From Octopus vulgaris (lineage: Eukaryota), in contig OX597817.1 of NCBI GenBank assembly GCA_951406725.2, positions 141,980,001-142,044,000 on the forward strand: a stretch of DNA of 64,000 nt, in the 5' to 3' direction. Under the pieces are notes generated by a model that saw only the letters and a list, made by a program, of their open reading frames with translations, was not told the origin of the DNA and ran no database searches. A program made the position numbers and the translations under genes. Shown here in pieces: positions 16,287-62,785 of the stretch (position 1 is its first letter; every line of letters begins with the position of its first letter).

Positions 16287-16900
16287 AGGCGGTGAGTTGG
16301 CAGAAAGGTTAGCACGCCGGGCGAAATAGTTAGCGGTATTTCGTCTGCCGCTACGTACTGAGTTCAAATTCCACCGAGGTCGACTTTGCCTTTCATCCTT
16401 TCGGGATCGATAAATTAAGTACTAGTTACACACTGGGGTCGATATAGTCAACTTAATCCGTTTGTCTGTCCTTGTTTGTCCTCTCTGTGTTTAGCCCCTT
16501 GTGGGTAGTAAAGAAATAAGTATTTTGTCTGTCTTTACGTTCTGAGTTAAAATACCTCCGAGGTCGACTTTGCCTTTCATCCTTTCGGGGTCGATAAATT
16601 AAGCACCAGTTACGCACTGGGGTCGATGTAATCGACTTAATCCGTTTCTCTGCCCTTGTTTGTCCCCTCGACGTTTAGCACCTTGTGGGCAATAAAGAAA
16701 TAAGAAACGTTAGCACGCCGGGCGAAATGTTTTATGGTATTTCGTCTGCCGCTACGTTCTGAGTTCAAATTCCGCCGAGGTCGACTTTGACTTTCATCCT
16801 TTAAGGGTCGATAAATTAAATACCAGTTGCATATTGGGTCGATCTAATTCACTGGCTACCCTCTCCCAAAATTTCGGGCATTGTGCCTGGAGTAGAGAAG
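16287..16900 (+). mobile_element. Trimeric family-C SINE
   Basis: Three ~180-230-bp units sharing GAGTTCAAATTCCGCCGAGGTCGACTTTGCCTTTCATCC; one 17-bp TSD AATTTTCT(A/T)GTAGGTAA (16270-16286, 16901-16917) flanks the whole trimer. Confidence 0.85.
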
Positions 16901-18630: not shown

Positions 18631-18796
18631 GATAAATCAAAAGAAATATTATAACACCGCTTTGAGAATAGCGAGATTCTATAAATATTTGGAATCACAA
18701 TCACATAGTCACGTGTGGCATTATTACCTTACTATTTAAAAACGGAGAAATGATTAGACGAAGTATGCCACTGCCGTCTTTAGTAAATCAAACTTT

Positions 18797-19171
18797 GGAG
18801 ACGCAATGGCCTAGCGGTTAGGGCAGCGGACTCGCAGTCGTAGGATCGCGGTTTCGATACCCAGACCGGGCGTTGTGAGTGTTTATTGAGTGAAAACACC
18901 TAAAGCTCCACGAGACTCCCGCAGGGAATGGGGGCGAACTCTACTGTATCCTTTCGCCATTTTCGCCACTTTCTTTCACTCTTTCTTCTAGTTTCTGTTG
19001 TACCTGTATTTCTAAAGGGCCAGCCTTGTTACACACTGTGTCACGCTGAATCTTCCCTAGAACTACGTTAAGAATACACGTGTCTGTGAAATGCTCGGCC
19101 ACTTGCAAGTTAATTTCACGAGCAGGCTGGAACCCGGATCAACTGGAACCCGCGTCGTCTTAATCGACGGA

Positions 19172-19176
<5 letters not shown>
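18797..19176 (+). mobile_element. tRNA-derived SINE, family B, full length
   Basis: GGAGACGCAATGGCCTAGCGGTTAGGGCAGCGGACTCGC...GGTTTCGATACCC head; ends GACGGAGTGC before (TA)n. Confidence 0.85.
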
Positions 19177-19216
<40 letters not shown>

Positions 19217-19219
<3 letters not shown>

Positions 19220-21752
19220 AGAGTAAATAATTTCTATACAGGCTTTTAAAAAAACCCCAATTATTTACTGGTAGAATTCGGTATGTAAATATAGCCGATT
19301 ACCGGCTGGAACTTCTGTAAAGTTCAGTATATATATTGTATATAAGAAAAAGGGACAGGCAAAACAGGTTGCTTGACCGCATACCGAAAAAATAGAAATA
19401 GCAGTCAAGAATGCTTATTTCTATCAAAGTTGGACTCCGGGCATGACAGACCCTGTAATTCACATATGCAAAACAGAAGGAATAGATAACGAATACGAAG
19501 TCTGGCGGTTATCTGTGAACATCATGTTTCTGGATTATAAACATATTGAATATATATTCCATATATATTTTTGATATATATTTCATATACATTGCATATA
19601 TATTTCACATCCTTCTTCAGCACAGCTTTCCATTGAAAAGGATTTATCATAGATTTATCAAATGCTACGTACCTCAAACCTTCTGACCATGCGACATCAA
19701 AATATTTGAAGAAAGTGAGCAAAAGCTAAACCTACATAGACGTTTGAATTCATAAATCTTCCCTCCAAAATTTTGCCATGCGCATTACAAAAATAGTTCC
19801 ATAAGATGGGGAACAATTAGGTTGTCAAAGGGAGTGAAAAATCCAAATAGTAATATGATAATAAGAGTAAATAATTTCTATACAGGCTTTTAAAAAAAAC
19901 CCAATTATTTACTGGTAGAATTCGGTATGTAAATATAGCCGATTACCGGCAGGAACTTCTGTAAAGTTCAGTATATATATTGTATATAAGAAAAAGGGAC
20001 AGGCAAAACAGGTTGCTTGACCGCATACCGAAAAAATAGAAATAGCAGTCAAGAATGCTTATTTCTATCAAAGTTGGACTCCGGGCATGACAGACCCTGT
20101 AATTCACATATGCAAAACAGAAGGAATAGATAACGAATACGAAGTCTGGCGGTTATCTGTGAACATCATGTTTCTGGATTATAAACATATTGAATATATA
20201 TTCCATATATATTTTTGATATATATTTCATATACATTGCATATATATTTCACATCCTTCTTCAGCACAGCTTTCCATTGAAAAGGATTTATCATAGATTT
20301 ATCAAATGCTACGTACCTCAAACCTTCTGACCATGCGACATCAAAATATTTGAAGAAAGTGAGCAAAAGCTAAACCTACATAGACGTTTGAATTCATAAA
20401 TCTTCCCTCCAAAATTTTGCCATGCGCATTACAAAAATAGTTCCATAAGATGGGGAACAATTAGGTTGTCAAAGGGAGTGAAAAATCCAAATAGTAATAT
20501 GATAATAAGAGTAAATAATTTCTATACAGGCTTTTAAAAAAACCCCAATTATTTACTGGTAGAATTCGGTATGTAAATATAGCCGATTACCGGCAGGAAC
20601 TTCTGTAAAGTTCAGTATATATATTGTATATAAGAAAAAGGGACAGGCAAAACAGGTTGCTTGACCGCATACCGAAAAAATAGAAATAGCAGTCAAGAAT
20701 GCTTATTTCTATCAAAGTTGGACTCCGGGCATGACAGACCCTGTAATTCACATATGCAAAACAGAAGGAATAGATAACGAATACGAAGTCTGGCGGTTAT
20801 CTGTGAACATCATGTTTCTGGATTATAAACATATTGAATATATATTCCATATATATTTTTGATATATATTTCATATACATTGCATATATATTTCACATCC
20901 TTCTTCAGCACAGCTTTCCATTGAAAAGGATTTATCATAGATTTATCAAATGCTACGTACCTCAAACCTTCTGACCATGCGACATCAAAATATTTGAAGA
21001 AAGTGAGCAAAAGCTAAACCTACATAGACGTTTGAATTCATAAATCTTCCCTCCAAAATTTTGCCATGCGCATTACAAAAATAGTTCCATAAGATGGGGA
21101 ACAATTAGGTTGTCAAAGGGAGTGAAAAATCCAAATAGTAATATGATAATAAGGGTAAATAATTTCTATACAGGCTTTTAAAAAAAACCCAATTATTTAC
21201 TGGTAGAATTCGGTATGTAAATATAGCCGATTACCGGCAGGAACTTCTGTAAAGTTCAGTATATATATTGTATATAAGAAAAAGGGACAGGCAAAACAGG
21301 TTGCTTGACCGCATACCGAAAAAATAGAAATAGCAGTCAAGAATGCTTATTTCTATCAAAGTTGGACTCCGGGCATGACAGACCCTGTAATTCACATATG
21401 CAAAACAGAAGGAATAGATAACGAATACGAAGTCTGGCGGTTATCTGTGAACATCATGTTTCTGGATTATAAACATATTGAATATATATTCAATATATAT
21501 TTTTGATATATATTTCATATACATTGCATATATATTTCACATCCTTCTTCAGCACAGCTTTCCATTGAAAAGGATTTATCATAGATTTATCAAATGCTAC
21601 GTACCTCAAACCTTCTGACCATGCGACATCAAAATATTTGAAGAAAGTGAGCAAAAGCTAAACATACATAGACGTTTGAATTCATAAATCTTTCCTCCAA
21701 AATTTTGCCATGCGCATTACAAAAATAGTTCCATAAGATGGGGAACAATTAG
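19217..21752 (-). repeat. Tandem array of a 644-bp HHR-bearing unit (~3.9 direct copies)
   Basis: Unit starts at 19217, 19861, 20505 and 21149; only a few substitutions or indels between copies; starts next to a (TA)n tract. Confidence 0.95.
19513..19625 (-). ncRNA. Putative type I hammerhead ribozyme in the 644-bp unit (also 20157-20269, 20801-20913, 21445-21557 on -)
   Basis: Stem I CTGTG/CACAG, core CTGAAGA, stem II GGAT...ATCC with AU-rich extension, GAAAC-ATGAT-GTT (stem III, GUU triplet). Confidence 0.7.
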
Positions 21753-22672
21753 GTAGCATTTGATAAATCTATGATAAATCCTTTTCAATGGAAAGCTGTG
21801 CTGAAGAAGGATGTGAAATATATATGCAATGTATATGAAATATATATCAAAAATATATATGGAATATATATTCAATATGTTTATAATCCAGAAACATGAT
21901 GTTCACAGATAACCGCCAGACTTCGTATTCGTTATCTATTCCTTCTGTTTTGCATATGTGAATTACAGGGTCTGTCATGCCCGGAGTCCAACTTTGATAG
22001 AAATAAGCATTCTTGACTGCTATTTCTATTTTTTCGGTATGCGGTCAAGCAACCTGTTTTGCCTGTCCCTTTTTCTTATATACAATATATATACTGAACT
22101 TTACAGAAGTTCCTGCCGGTAATCGGCTATATTTACATACCGAATTCTACCAGTAAATAATTGGGGTTTTTTTAAAAGCCTGTATAGAAATTATTTACTC
22201 TTATTATCATATTACTATTTGGATTTTTCACTCCCTTTGACAACCTAATTGTTCCCCATCTCATGGAACTATTTTTGTAATGCGCATGGCAAAATTTTGG
22301 AGGAAGATTTATGAATTCAAACGTCTACGTAGGTTTAGCTTTTGCTCACTTTCTTCAAATATTTTGATGTCGCATGGTCAGAAGGTTTGAGGTACGTAGC
22401 ATTTGATAAATCTATGATAAATCCTTTTCAATGGAAAGCTGTGCTGAAGAAGGATGTGAAATATATATGCAATGTATATGAAATATATATCAAAAATATA
22501 TATGGAATATATATTCAATATGTTTATAATCCAGAAACATGATGTTCACAGATAACCGCCAGACTTCGTATTCGTTATCTATTCCTTCTGTTTTGCATAT
22601 GTGAATTACAGGGTCTGTCATGCCCGGAGTCCAACTTTGATAGAAATAAGCATTCTTGACTGCTATTTCTAT
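21753..22672 (+). repeat. Inverted continuation of the 644-bp array (~1.4 units)
   Basis: Reverse complement of 20680-21600; junction AATTAG|GT|AGCATTTG with GT microhomology; ends in (TA)n. Confidence 0.95.
21796..21908 (+). ncRNA. Putative hammerhead ribozyme in the inverted arm (second copy 22439-22551)
   Basis: CTGTG CTGAAGA AGGAT...ATCCA GAAAC ATGAT GTT CACAG read directly on the + strand. Confidence 0.7.
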
Positions 22673-22710
22673 ATATATATATATATATACACACATATAT
22701 ATATATATAT

Positions 22711-22979
22711 CTACGAGGCTCCGGCAGTGGGTGGTGGCGAACCCTGCTCTATTCATTCGCCACAACCTTCTCCCCCTCTTTCTTCCTGTTTCTGGTGTAC
22801 CTGTATTTGACAAAGCCAGTCTTATCACTCTCTGTGTTACATTGAATCTCCGCGAGAACTACGTTAATGGTACACGTGTTTGTGGAGTGCTCAGCCACTT
22901 GCACGTTCATTTCACGGGCAGGCTTTTCCGTTGATCATATCAACTGGGACTCACGTCGACGTAACCGACTGAGTGCCAC
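22711..22979 (+). mobile_element. 5'-truncated family-B SINE
   Basis: Collinear with 18907-19176. Confidence 0.8.
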
Positions 22980-23554
22980 AAGATCAAACTACCATTTACA
23001 TCCACTATTTTGGTTTCAAAACGTATAGATGAGATCGAATTTAATATGTTGTCATTGTTTCCTTAGTGTACGCTACCACACTGGGAAAGAAGATATGTGA
23101 AGTTTTAGAAAAAGTTTATCTTTTAATATCTCTGAGATAGACTAGCGACGTGTCTAGACACGGCATCGCATTAGCTTACTGTCTTGGATATGGCGATAAC
23201 TGAAATACCTATTAATCTTACTGTCTAATTTTTTGTGTTTAAGGTGAAGACTTAAATCGTATTTAATCAGTTTTATAAATATCATCGCATGCGTACATAC
23301 ACATACATACACGAGCTCACACATACATATACAGACACACGTAAATACATACATATGAAATTATTTTTCTATTCGTCAAATTCGGTGTGTGTGTGTGTAC
23401 TTATTTGTGTTTTTGTGTGTGTGTGTATGTGTAGCTAACAAATATATACAGAATTCATGTAAAGTATTGCAAATAGACATTTTATTAGCTCGAAACACAC
23501 GCGGACACTTACATATCTAATATTTGTATATAAGTATGTATTTATACACACACA

Positions 23555-23633: not shown

Positions 23634-23855
23634 CACTTTGATCACTTCACTTTGACCGACCAGTCCGTCAGGCGTCCATTTGACACCGTTGGTCACAGCA
23701 CCCTGTCTACTCCTCTCTGGATCGCGCCTTTCTCATCCACGTGATCCCAAGTGTCCTCTTGAAATCGTCACTCCACCGTCGTGGAGGTCTTCCGGGTGGT
23801 CTTTTCCGCTCACGCGGGTACCACTCGACAACTGCGTGCGTCCACCGCATCTGAT
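23634..23855 (-). mobile_element. 3' end of an RTE-clade LINE
   Basis: Translates MRWTHAVVEWYPRERKRPPGRPPRRWSDDFKRTLGITWMRKAR (typical RTE C-terminal WxPxxxKRxxGRPxxRWxDD); short repeated tail; embedded in (TA)n. Confidence 0.85.
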
Positions 23856-23884
23856 ATTTATATATATATATATATATATATATA

Positions 23885-24200
23885 AAGCCTGACTTTGCCC
23901 CTAAGCCTAGACGCAGGCTGATAAACCAGGCGAAATTTGAGATCGGGCACGTGAGCAAACAGTTCATCAGGAAGATCAGGAACGGCGAAACACCAACGAA
24001 GTCATTACATGATATAAGGCCAACAGCAGTGGGAGTAGACCTAGGTTTATCCAATTTGATTAGTGGACTTCTACCAATCTATGTCAAGGGAGTTCCTGTT
24101 AAAGGCACTGAACTTCGCATTATCATGCACGCCAGAAGAACCCTACTTTTCAGTAAGGGACCAAATGCACCTACCCAGAGGGCTGCTTCGACGTGCTAAT
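23885..24200 (+). pseudogene. Frameshifted Penelope-like element reverse transcriptase fragment
   Basis: Across frames: KPDFAPKPRRRLINQAKFEIGHVSK...RNTNEVIT...RFIQFD..DFYQSMSREFLLKALNFA...IIMHARRTLLF, matching PLE RT motifs RLINPAKSEIG and FDIVxFYPSI; flanked by (TA)n. Confidence 0.75.
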
Positions 24201-30737: not shown

Positions 30738-30889
30738 TATTTCTGTGTTTATTTCCTCGTGTACCTCTCTGTTGAAGAGCGTAAGCACCACACGTAAAAG
30801 ACTTTCTCACTTTCCCGAGTCTTAAACTAATACACCTTTTTGTTGTTTATACACCTGTTTTCGTCTTTTGTTTTGCTGTCAATTTCAAC

Positions 30890-31335
30890 CATTCAATAAG
30901 AATTAAGGGCATGACTTATCTTGATTGTTGGGACCGCCTTAAAGCCTTGAAACTCCACTCTCTCCAGCGCCACCGCGAGCGGTACAACATTTGGACGATG
31001 TTGTGTATGTACTGCCTGCAATGCCCAAGCGACATGAACATTAGCTTCAACGTCCATCCAAAGCTGAGACCAAGGGTCATACGTCCCCTGCCCAATTCAG
31101 GATCACAACATATAGGTACACGGCGTCATAATTTCTTTTCTTCAACAGGCCCTGTCCTCTTTAACAATGTCCCATCACGTTTAAACGGAATGTGGGCAAA
31201 TTTCTTCGAGGAATACCAGACAATCCACCCATACCTGGATACAACTCACTCAATAAGAACTCACTACTTAAATGGACCATGATACCACAAAATTTGACTT
31301 AAAAAGGATTAAGATAATCCTATCAGGTGGTGCTT
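30890..31335 (+). mobile_element. CR1-like LINE 3' relic
   Basis: ORF 30911-31282: CWDRLKALKLHSLQRHRERY...FFSSTGPVLFNNVP, the typical CR1-group RT C-terminal region. Confidence 0.75.
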
Positions 31336-57514: not shown

Positions 57515-58520
57515 AATCCGGTGAGCTGGCAGGAACGTTAGCACGCCGGGCGAAATGGCTAGCGGTATTTCGTCTGCCGCTACGTTCTGAGTTCAAATTC
57601 CGCCGAGGTCGACTTTGCCTTTCATCCTTTCGGAGTCGATTAAATAAGTACCAGTTACGCACTGGGGTCGATATAATCGACTTAATCCGTTTGTCTGTCC
57701 TTGCTTGTCCTCTCTATGTTTAGTCCCTTGTGGGTAGTAAAGAAATAGGTATTTCGTCTGCCGTTACGTGCTGAGTTCAAATTCCGCCGAGGTCGACTTT
57801 GCCTTTCATCCTTTCGGGTTCGATTAAATAAGTACCAGTTACGCACTGGAGTCGATAAAATAGACTTAATCCGTTTGTCTGTCCTTGTTTGCCCTCTCTG
57901 TGTTTAGCCTCGTGTGGGTAGTAAAAAATAGGTATTTCGTCTGTCTTTACGTTCTGACTTCAAATTCCGCCGAGATCGACGTTGGCTTTCATCCTTTCAA
58001 GTTCGATTAAACATGTACCAGTTGTGCACTGTGGTCGATGTAATCGACTAAATGTCCTTGTTTGTCCCCTCTATGTTTAGCCCCCTGTGGGCAATAAAGA
58101 AATAAATATTTGATATTTCCATAGCGGCGAGATGGTAGAAACGTTAGCAGGCAGGGCGAAATGCCTAGCGGTATTTCGTCTGTCTTTACGTTCTGAGTTC
58201 AAATTCTGCCGAGGTCGACTTTGCCTTTCATCCTTTCGGGGTCGATTAAATAAGTACCAGTTACGCACTGGGTCGATATAATCGACTTAATCCCTTTGTC
58301 TGTCATTGTCTGTCCCCTGTGTGTTTAGCCCCTTGTGGGTAGTAAAGAAATATGTATTTCGTCTGTCTTTTTTATGTTCTGAGTTCAAATTCCGCCGAGG
58401 TCGAATTTGTGTTTCATCCTTTTGGGTTCTAAAATTTAAGTACCAGTTACGTATTGGGGTCTATCTAATCCACTTAGTCCCCTCCCAAAAATTTCGTGTC
58501 TTGTGCCTAGAGTAGAAAAT
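57515..58520 (+). mobile_element. Two adjacent multimeric family-C SINEs (trimer 57515-58104, dimer 58121-58520)
   Basis: Five ~180-bp units; target sequence AA(T/G)ATTTGATAT(G/T)TCC present three times (57499, 58105, 58521). Confidence 0.85.
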
Positions 58521-62089: not shown

Positions 62090-62295
62090 AATTAAGAATT
62101 TTGGGACTGCTGTCAGGCTTGAAGTGATCCAGAAGACAGCATTGTTGGATACAGCTCGCATTCTAAGGAGAGTATTGTCTCTTTGAATCACAGGAGAAGG
62201 GAGTACTTGAAACCCTTGGTGATTTGTTATTGCCTGCTTTCAAGTAAAGAATAACCGGTAATTAAGAACTATCCGAGAGTCCTTCAGAATAAAAA
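62090..62295 (+). mobile_element. Short R4/Dong-like 3' relic between (TAA)n tracts
   Basis: LEVIQKTALLDTARILRRVLSL. Confidence 0.65.
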
Positions 62296-62330
62296 TGATG
62301 ATGATGATGGTGATGATGATGATGATGATG

Positions 62331-62383
<53 letters not shown>

Positions 62384-62384
<1 letters not shown>

Positions 62385-62785
62385 GTGAGCAAGTATAAAG
62401 ATCTTGAAATACAAATTAGCAAAATGTGGAACCTGAAGACTAAAACAATAGCTGTTGTCATAGGTTACCTAGGAAGGATAGCAAAAGGGGCTGATTGCTA
62501 CCTAGCACAGATACCAGGAAACCCCAAAATGGGGGAAATTCAAAAGATAGTGCGCATGGGAACTGCCCATATCCTACGTACAATACTGTCTATGTAATCT
62601 CAAATTTTAAAACAAACACATCATTCTCTTATGGCTTCTTAACCATTTTCTAGAACAACACTATGTACAAAACCAAATATATGGCACCCTAAGCATAACA
62701 ACAATATGAACTTCTAAGTTGTTGAGAGGTCTCTTGAGGTCTATAGGTGAGACTTGTACAAATTCAAATCAAAAGTCAAACATAA
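62384..62785 (+). mobile_element. 5'-truncated R4/Dong-like non-LTR element inserted in (TAA)n
   Basis: SKYKDLEIQISKMWNLKTKTIAVVIGYLG...IQKIVRMGTAHILRTILSM plus 3' UTR; (TAA)n on both sides. Confidence 0.8.

What the first reader, a model, noticed from the sequence alone, without database searches (positions are those of the whole stretch)
19513..19625. Atypical hammerhead architecture: ~80-nt AU-rich stem II, A-A at the base of stem II, quasi-palindromic stem III
Stem II extends GGAT-GTGAA-ATAT / ATAT-G-TTTAT-A-ATCC into a long ATATAT-rich hairpin, and positions 10.1/11.1 are A/A instead of G/C. Stem III AACAT-G-ATGTT is self-complementary except for the central base, so adjacent units could pair into a dimeric ribozyme. 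Speculatively, the AU-repeat loop could also anneal to (TA)n target DNA and explain the insertion preference.
Basis: partly seen in the sequence, partly recalled or inferred. Interest (0 to 1): 0.7.

Follow-up and report, generated by a model that had tools for sequence, protein, structure and literature searches.

The report
Retrozyme hammerhead with mismatched stem base
This is a predicted self-cutting hammerhead RNA inside a young, protein-less jumping repeat; its odd A-A mismatch at a normally paired position is shared by many related repeat families in this genome and likely makes it a slow cutter, whereas its long AU-rich arm is peculiar to this family and is not needed for landing in TA repeats.

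Summary
Window 19513-19625 (minus strand) is a type I hammerhead, one of six copies in a 644-bp tandem-plus-inverted element sitting in (TA)n: a young non-LTR retrozyme with a Penelope-type insertion pattern.

A10.1·A11.1 is real and inherited: 90 of 90 family copies carry it. Relatives with short stems show A at 11.1 in 786 matches, C/G/U in 1,824, and no nucleotide in only 6. The neighbouring helices covary. I found U·U described at this position but not A·A; one key paper (Lünse 2017) could not be read.

The 83-nt AU arm is a real hairpin but peculiar to this family. Sister families with short stems (0-2 ATAT) end in (TA)n at the same two sites, and none of 68 TA-abutting family ends lies in stem II. 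The 'AU loop targets TA DNA' idea therefore fails.

The palindromic stem III for dimers is a published feature of Penelope and retrozyme hammerheads. Cleavage is untested and the mobilising element was not found.

The scan noted this insertion architecture and long stems II before, in other families of this genome; my look-ups found no note on this sequence or on A·A.

The parts
19214..22672 (.). Whole insertion: tandem array plus a 5'-inverted second array of a 644-bp non-coding unit, (TA)n on both sides
   Evidence: longest stop-to-stop frame inside the unit 69 aa
19214..21754 (-). Main arm: three full units (19216-19859, 19860-20503, 20504-21147) plus a 5'-truncated unit (unit positions 38-644); 3' end at the family's main fixed site
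21750..22672 (+). Inverted arm: unit positions 189-644 then 1-468, ending in (TA)n
19513..19625 (-). Type I hammerhead (the finding); further copies at 20157-20269, 20801-20913, 21445-21557 (-) and 21796-21908, 22439-22551 (+)
19614..19620 (-). Core C3-A9, CUGAAGA; 5' strand of stem I at 19621-19625
19613..19613 (-). A10.1, facing A11.1 at 19531; pairs 10.2-10.4 are GGA (19610-19612) with UCC (19532-19534)
19535..19609 (-). Family-specific AU-rich distal arm of stem II; its last base (A at 19535) is the conserved A before 11.4
19518..19530 (-). G12-A14, quasi-palindromic stem III ACAUGAUGU and U17 (GUU triplet; predicted cut between 19518 and 19517)
19511..19517 (-). 3' strand of stem I (CACAG) and U1.7 at 19511, inferred tertiary partner of the stem II A
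   Evidence: PMC11875169 passages
19176..19216 (.). (TA)n target, left
22670..22710 (.). (TA)n target, right

Best explanation
The sequence is a type I hammerhead motif in each unit of a young 644-bp non-coding repeat whose first stem II position is an inherited A·A mismatch; it likely cuts slowly, probably helped by dimer formation, and the RNA is likely copied into (TA)n by a Penelope-type enzyme supplied in trans. Shown: the fold, its covariation across families, the relaxed 10.1·11.1 position with fixed spacing, and the fixed 3' ends about 185 and 300 nt downstream of the ribozyme. Inferred: stem II is the ordinary four-position stem (N·N plus three pairs), followed by an unpaired A that would dock on U1.7. 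Anything distal to that A would be free cargo, and in this family it probably grew by AT slippage to 83 nt. Also inferred: A·A and U17 lower the cleavage rate; uncut multimers or religated circles serve as template; target choice rests with the Penelope endonuclease and short TA-like priming sites at the unit ends, not with stem II.
For: A·A in 90 of 90 copies from 40 insertions. With N-RGA...AUCY-x-GAAAY and short stems: x=A 786, x=C/G/U 1,824, x missing 6 (controls 0, 0, 2). Alignment of 14 family representatives: 85.7% of cells paired vs 70.9±2.1 shuffled; 8 of 12 pairs change on both sides; 10.2-11.2 is A-U in 7 and G-C in 7, while 10.1·11.1 is unpaired in 13 of 14. Among 34 representatives the A before 11.4 is kept in 32 (facing U in only 2) and U1.7 in 29; this matches the published U1.7-A(L2.4) Hoogsteen contact (PMC11875169 passages). 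The 83-nt representative has 14 ATAT words in stem II; the other 28 of 29 cluster representatives have 24-41 nt and 0-2. Of 68 TA-abutting ends, 37 lie at unit 640-644, 19 at 494-532 and 0 in stem II. An RT+GIY-YIG Penelope-type family with 784-aa open frames, many copies followed by (TA)n, exists in G000.
Against: No cleavage data. 5' truncation points (75 pieces) do not pile up at the predicted cut, and many arms read through it, so in vivo cutting is not shown. Within the young family the core is not less variable than the rest (11 distinct substitutions in 32 core and stem I/III sites vs 0.27-0.29 per site elsewhere); these are mostly single-copy changes after insertion. The one autonomous family examined shares no sequence with the unit, and no Penelope-like ORF lay beside the hammerheads in the loci tested, apart from the unrelated fragment in L058. 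In this family the base opposite the putative docking A is U, so it could pair. Eight of nine Xenopus retrozyme dimers did not cleave in vitro (10.64898/2026.07.22.740005). The representatives were drawn mostly from patterns that required A11.1, so A·A frequencies are inflated.
Confidence: 0.68

Rival explanations
1. Register alternative: the true 10.1-11.1 pair is the G-C below, and both As are extruded extra nucleotides. One is the known bulge between A9 and 10.1 of Penelope hammerheads; the other would be new, before G12.
For: An extra nucleotide between 9 and 10.1 above a conserved G10.1-C11.1 is typical of Penelope hammerheads (PMC4209133). The 5' base varies (A, C, U, G).
Against: Close relatives have Watson-Crick or wobble pairs (A-U, G·U, G-C) or the known U·U at this same place above the same RGA/UCY. 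Loss of the 3' nucleotide is almost absent (6 vs 2,610). The next pair switches freely between G-C and A-U. Counting from the N·N gives the standard four positions before the conserved A. This was my first reading; I dropped it.
Confidence: 0.14
2. The motif no longer cuts to any useful extent. It is kept as a folded handle for the Penelope protein or for RNA stability, and multimers come from read-through transcription of tandem copies.
For: Two rate-lowering features together (A·A, U17). No clustering of 5' ends at the cut site. Low activity is reported for Penelope minimal hammerheads (PMC4209133) and for most tested Xenopus retrozymes.
Against: The full catalytic core and stem I/II covariation are kept across families only about 40-75% alike. 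18 locus-private variants are shared by all overlapping units of one insertion, 10 of them on both arms (vs 100 not shared). That fits one monomer template such as a circle, but only 40 loci were sampled.
Confidence: 0.13
3. One reading: the AU arm anneals to (TA)n DNA and sets the insertion preference.
For: The arm is AT-rich and the family sits in (TA)n.
Against: The arm is self-paired, with a longest alternating run of 8 nt. No TA-abutting end lies in it (0 of 68). 51 of 74 short-arm relatives with at most 2 ATAT words end in (TA)n at the same distances (background 6.6%; windows chosen after seeing the data). (TA)n bias is published for Penelope-like elements (PMC8557442). A contig from coded organism B (X13) lacks 36 nt of the arm.
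Confidence: 0.03

Closest known systems
Metazoan non-LTR retrozymes (Cervera & de la Peña 2020, PMC7229834: passages and sections 14-15 read, supplement unreadable; Li, Clavereau & Pollet 2026, 10.64898/2026.07.22.740005: parts 1-3 of 5 read)
   Same: Non-coding tandem unit, low GC, one type I hammerhead per unit, dispersed young copies, proposed Penelope mobilisation. Axolotl HHR_Amex2 has a U·U mismatch at the base of helix II and works better as a dimer.
   Different: Unit 644 bp (170-400 nt in the 2020 paper; within the 51-972 bp of the 2026 paper). A·A rather than U·U; 83-nt stem II; circular RNA and cleavage not shown here.
Penelope-like-element hammerheads (Cervera & de la Peña 2014, PMC4209133: parts 1-2 of 4 and supplement part 1 of 3 read)
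   Same: Type I, short stem I, longer helix II, palindromic stem III suited to dimers; U17 occurs in several rows of their Fig. S3.
   Different: They keep G10.1-C11.1 with a single 5' bulge; here the position is a 1x1 mismatch, and stem III can form three pairs in the monomer.
Natural U10.1·U11.1 hammerheads (Perreault et al. 2011, PMC3088659: passages read)
   Same: Natural mismatch at the base of stem II.
   Different: A·A, C·A and G·A do not appear in the passages seen. That survey rejected hits mispaired at 10.1-11.1, and notes U·U as the best-tolerated mismatch.
Penelope-like elements, EN+ clades (Craig et al. 2021, PMC8557442: passages and a supplement search read)
   Same: Tandem plus 5'-inverted insertions, variable 5' truncation, microsatellite (TA)n bias.
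   Different: No ORF here; the autonomous partner was not identified.

Membership tests
Type I hammerhead ribozyme | Core C3UGANGA9, G12AAA15.1, U16.1H17 | tested here: met
   CUGAAGA, GAAA, GUU; GUU in 88 of 90 copies
Type I hammerhead ribozyme | Stems I-III with covariation, ends in stem I | tested here: met
Type I hammerhead ribozyme | Paired 10.1-11.1 (consensus G-C) | tested here: not met
   A·A in 90 of 90 copies; a natural U·U exception is published (PMC3088659), so this weakens the canonical label rather than the class
Type I hammerhead ribozyme | Stem I-stem II tertiary contact | tested here: inconclusive
   U1.7 in 29 of 34 and the A before 11.4 in 32 of 34; contact inferred only
Type I hammerhead ribozyme | Self-cleavage | not testable with these tools
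   no raw RNA reads available
Type I hammerhead ribozyme | Match to an Rfam hammerhead model | tested here: not met
   the long insert probably defeats the models (inference)
Non-LTR retrozyme | Non-coding tandem units, each with a type I hammerhead | tested here: met
Non-LTR retrozyme | Dispersed multi-copy family | tested here: met
   140 matched pieces from 40 scored of 1,421 candidates, full units 97-100% alike
Non-LTR retrozyme | Expressed as circular RNA | not testable with these tools
   only contigs of runs whose RNA status is a guess
Non-autonomous Penelope-like element | Tandem plus 5'-inverted structure, fixed 3' ends, microsatellite target | tested here: met
Non-autonomous Penelope-like element | Sequence shared with the pLTR of an autonomous element | tested here: inconclusive
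   one autonomous family (30 loci) shares none; other families were not examined

The most novel reading that the evidence does not exclude
A whole clade of animal retrozymes uses an active hammerhead subclass in which a stacked purine mismatch (A·A, also C·A and G·A) replaces the conserved 10.1-11.1 pair. An A-U1.7 contact made from an internal loop would rescue it and free the rest of stem II to carry any cargo. Such ribozymes would be invisible to descriptor searches that demand this pair, and the natural series G-C, G·U, A-U, U·U, U-A, C·A, A·A would be a ready-made test of how cleavage rate is tuned to retrotransposition.
Probability: 0.35. Interest if true: 0.6.

Novelty: new variant of a known kind. 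Interest (0 to 1): 0.4.

Why it matters
The element is an ordinary retrozyme. The point of interest is the 10.1·11.1 position, among the most conserved pairs of hammerheads: here it is relaxed across many recently amplified families while spacing and the neighbouring pairs are kept. If these RNAs cleave, the hammerhead consensus widens, surveys that reject this mismatch undercount animal ribozymes, and the natural allelic series allows a direct test of whether slow cleavage suits Penelope-driven copying. The long AU arm and the palindromic stem III add little.

Tried and rejected
Rfam: no hammerhead match.

Reading of two inserted As around G10.1-C11.1: dropped.

Coupling of A11.1 with U17: rejected. 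A11.1 occurs with GUC as well as GUU (469 and 454 matches, partly overlapping because one family matches both patterns). GUU also occurs with C11.1 (52 matches, control 9), and U17 is seen in published Penelope hammerheads.

Direction of change (A·A ancestral, U11.1 derived): the U11.1 rows sit in a 12-row clade at 94/98 support with a midpoint root only, so it is not established.

Autonomous partner: not found. The strand map was partly wrong and its pattern found no C3-G8 hammerhead in any of 30 loci.

Expression: no RNA holder listed. Contigs from guessed-RNA runs X1 and X2 are 674 nt (unit plus 30), which fits a circle or a tandem equally; not used as evidence.

Clustering of 5' ends at the cut site: none.

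Pattern AAGACCGC... gave a single locus. The family with an AACAU-U-AUGUU stem lacks a clear stem I and was not used.

3 of 37 representatives were not parsed, and 4 of the 34 parsed have stem I of 2 bp or less and may be mis-registered.

Literature searches for A10.1/A11.1 or octopus hammerheads found no description of A·A. Lünse et al. 2017 (PMC5785218) and Nelson & Uhlenbeck 2008 were not held, and the supplement of PMC7229834 was unreadable; these may describe such variants. PMC9901934 passages gave nothing on this position. That NUU triplets cut more slowly than NUC is recalled; PMC3138052 only lists GUU among active sites.

Full report
What is there. The finding lies on the minus strand and reads CUGUG, CUGAAGA, 83 nt, GAA, ACAUGAUGU, U, CACAG: a type I hammerhead with a GUU triplet. 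The window holds six copies, five identical. They belong to a 644-bp unit repeated about 3.9 times, followed by an inverted arm of about 1.4 units, with (TA)n on both sides. The unit has no open frame above 69 aa. In G000 (2.8 Gb, 227 contigs) the unit gave 140 matched pieces from 40 scored of 1,421 candidates, full units 97-100% alike. Earlier AI notes call this genome octopus-like; I did not test that. Rfam found no hammerhead.

The fold. Stems I and II have pair probabilities of 0.8-1.0 in the isolated motif and stem III 0.45-0.69. The motif survives in the minimum-energy fold of the whole unit taken as a circle, where stem I drops to about 0.4. The 83-nt segment is more stable than 498 of 500 shuffles, its central part is about 78% paired, and its longest alternating AU run is 8 nt. 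The AU repeats are thus stems, not a loop.

The A·A. All 90 hammerheads from 40 insertions have A at both places; 88 have GUU. Loose ends of contigs led to sister families about 65-83% alike over shared stretches, which carry the same feature. My first reading was two inserted As around an intact G10.1-C11.1, because a bulge after A9 is typical of Penelope hammerheads (PMC4209133). Pattern counts changed that. In the context N-RGA...AUCY-x-GAAAY with short stems, x is A in 786 matches, C/G/U in 1,824 and missing in 6 (reverse controls 0, 0, 2). Of the first 100 non-A rows listed, 84 are U·U, 11 G·U, 4 A-U and 1 G-C (my count). These are copy counts dominated by a few families, not independent events.

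Covariation. In 14 family representatives, 85.7% of cells pair against 70.9±2.1 in shuffles, and slid controls reach at most 42%. Eight of 12 pairs change on both sides. Pair 10.2-11.2 is A-U in 7 and G-C in 7, while 10.1·11.1 is unpaired in 13. In 34 representatives (37 tried; mostly drawn by patterns demanding A11.1) the A just before 11.4 is kept in 32 and faces U in only 2, and U1.7 is kept in 29. This is the geometry of the U1.7-A(L2.4) Hoogsteen contact described for extended hammerheads (PMC11875169 passages). I infer a standard four-position stem II with a docking A presented from an internal loop, which would leave the distal arm free. In this family the base opposite that A is U, so the contact may compete with pairing.

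The long arm. Among 29 clusters, the representative of this family has 83 nt with 14 ATAT words; the other 28 have 24-41 nt and 0-2. The patterns that gathered most of them limited stem length, so other long arms would be missed. Long AU-rich stems II also occur in canonical-core hammerheads of this genome and in earlier notes on other families. Within the family the arm varies from 61 to 84 nt, and a contig from coded organism B skips 36 nt of it. An internal period of 11 suggests growth by slippage (inference). One contig (X5) swaps an A-U pair of the arm to U-A: a single event that repair of an inverted repeat could also give.

Targeting. Of 75 arm or piece ends in 40 insertions, 68 abut (TA)n: 37 at unit 640-644, 19 at 494-532, 12 elsewhere and none in stem II at 247-329. 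The 12 scattered ends alone are too few to show avoidance. The stronger test is comparative: 51 of 74 array-terminal short-arm hammerheads are followed by (TA)n at 165-215 or 285-325 nt, against 6.6% for random window positions (windows set). (TA)n bias and tandem/inverted insertions are published for Penelope-like elements (PMC8557442). G000 holds an RT+GIY-YIG family with 784-aa open frames, many copies followed by (TA)n, but it shares no sequence with the unit; the partner is unknown.

Stem III. The outer A and U of AACAUGAUGUU are A14 and U17. ACAUGAUGU gives a duplex of -6.4 kcal/mol with one G·G, against +2.1 for the isolated hairpin. 27 of 34 representatives have at most one mismatch as a dimer. 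Any hairpin is partly palindromic, but perfect palindromes too short to fold alone (ACGCGU, ACAUGU) are common here. Dimer cleavage is published (PMC4209133; PMC7229834; review PMC6765202 passages). U17 is not tied to A11.1 and occurs in published Penelope hammerheads.

Likely working. The unit is transcribed (inferred). The hammerhead cuts slowly, better as a dimer (inferred from A·A, U17 and the weak stem III; PMC3088659 notes U·U as the best-tolerated mismatch). Uncut multimers or circles are primed at two fixed TA-like sites and copied by a Penelope enzyme into (TA)n (inferred from the ends). Eighteen locus-private variants shared by all overlapping units of one insertion, 10 on both arms, fit a single monomer template; 100 are unshared and only 40 loci were sampled. 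Against: 5' ends do not cluster at the cut, the core is no less variable than the rest within this young family, and most Xenopus retrozymes tested did not cleave.

Novelty. The element is a new member of the non-LTR retrozymes. U·U at the base of stem II is published (PMC3088659; axolotl HHR_Amex2). I found no description of A·A, C·A or G·A there, and the 2011 survey rejected hits mispaired at this position. Lünse et al. 2017 and one supplement could not be read and may cover it. Earlier notes of this scan describe the two-armed insertions and long stems II in other families; a look-up by this sequence returned nothing. Verdict: new variant of a known kind, interest 0.4.

Noticed in passing
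G000, e.g. C1:441162-441199 and C1:71597385-71603428 (loci L172-L181): A large young group of roughly 545-560-bp retrozymes (most of the 1,824 matches, judged from the first 100 rows) has U·U, G·U or A-U at 10.1·11.1 and the perfect palindrome AACGUACGUU in stem III.
   Followed up: partly
L133:1450-2800 (G000:C1:26211061-26214366): High-copy autonomous Penelope-type family (RT + GIY-YIG, open frames of 784 aa) ending in (TA)n; by eye its 3' end holds a hammerhead-like motif with the U3-A8 core variant.
   Followed up: partly
Family loci L019, L029, L192, L193, L206: Six of the 10 private variants shared by both arms of an insertion are T>C in the ribozyme sense, which could reflect changes already present in the RNA template.
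   Followed up: no
window 18795-19175 and 22713-22990: The insertion is flanked by two copies, 81-84% alike in matched parts, of another repeat whose left copy has a tRNA-like head by eye (ARAGORN found no tRNA); probably a SINE whose TA tail was the target.
   Followed up: partly
L031, L037, L046 (about 1340-1620): A separate dispersed repeat with CUGAUGA-A-GGCUG...CAGCC-GAAACAUUAUGUU next to (AAT)n and a tRNA-like segment, without a clear stem I.
   Followed up: partly
window 16336-16704 and 57564-58053: 184-bp tandem repeats of one family.
   Followed up: no
window 23707-24078, 30785-31282, 62262-62597: Open frames that look like fragments of LINE-type proteins (label from recall).
   Followed up: no
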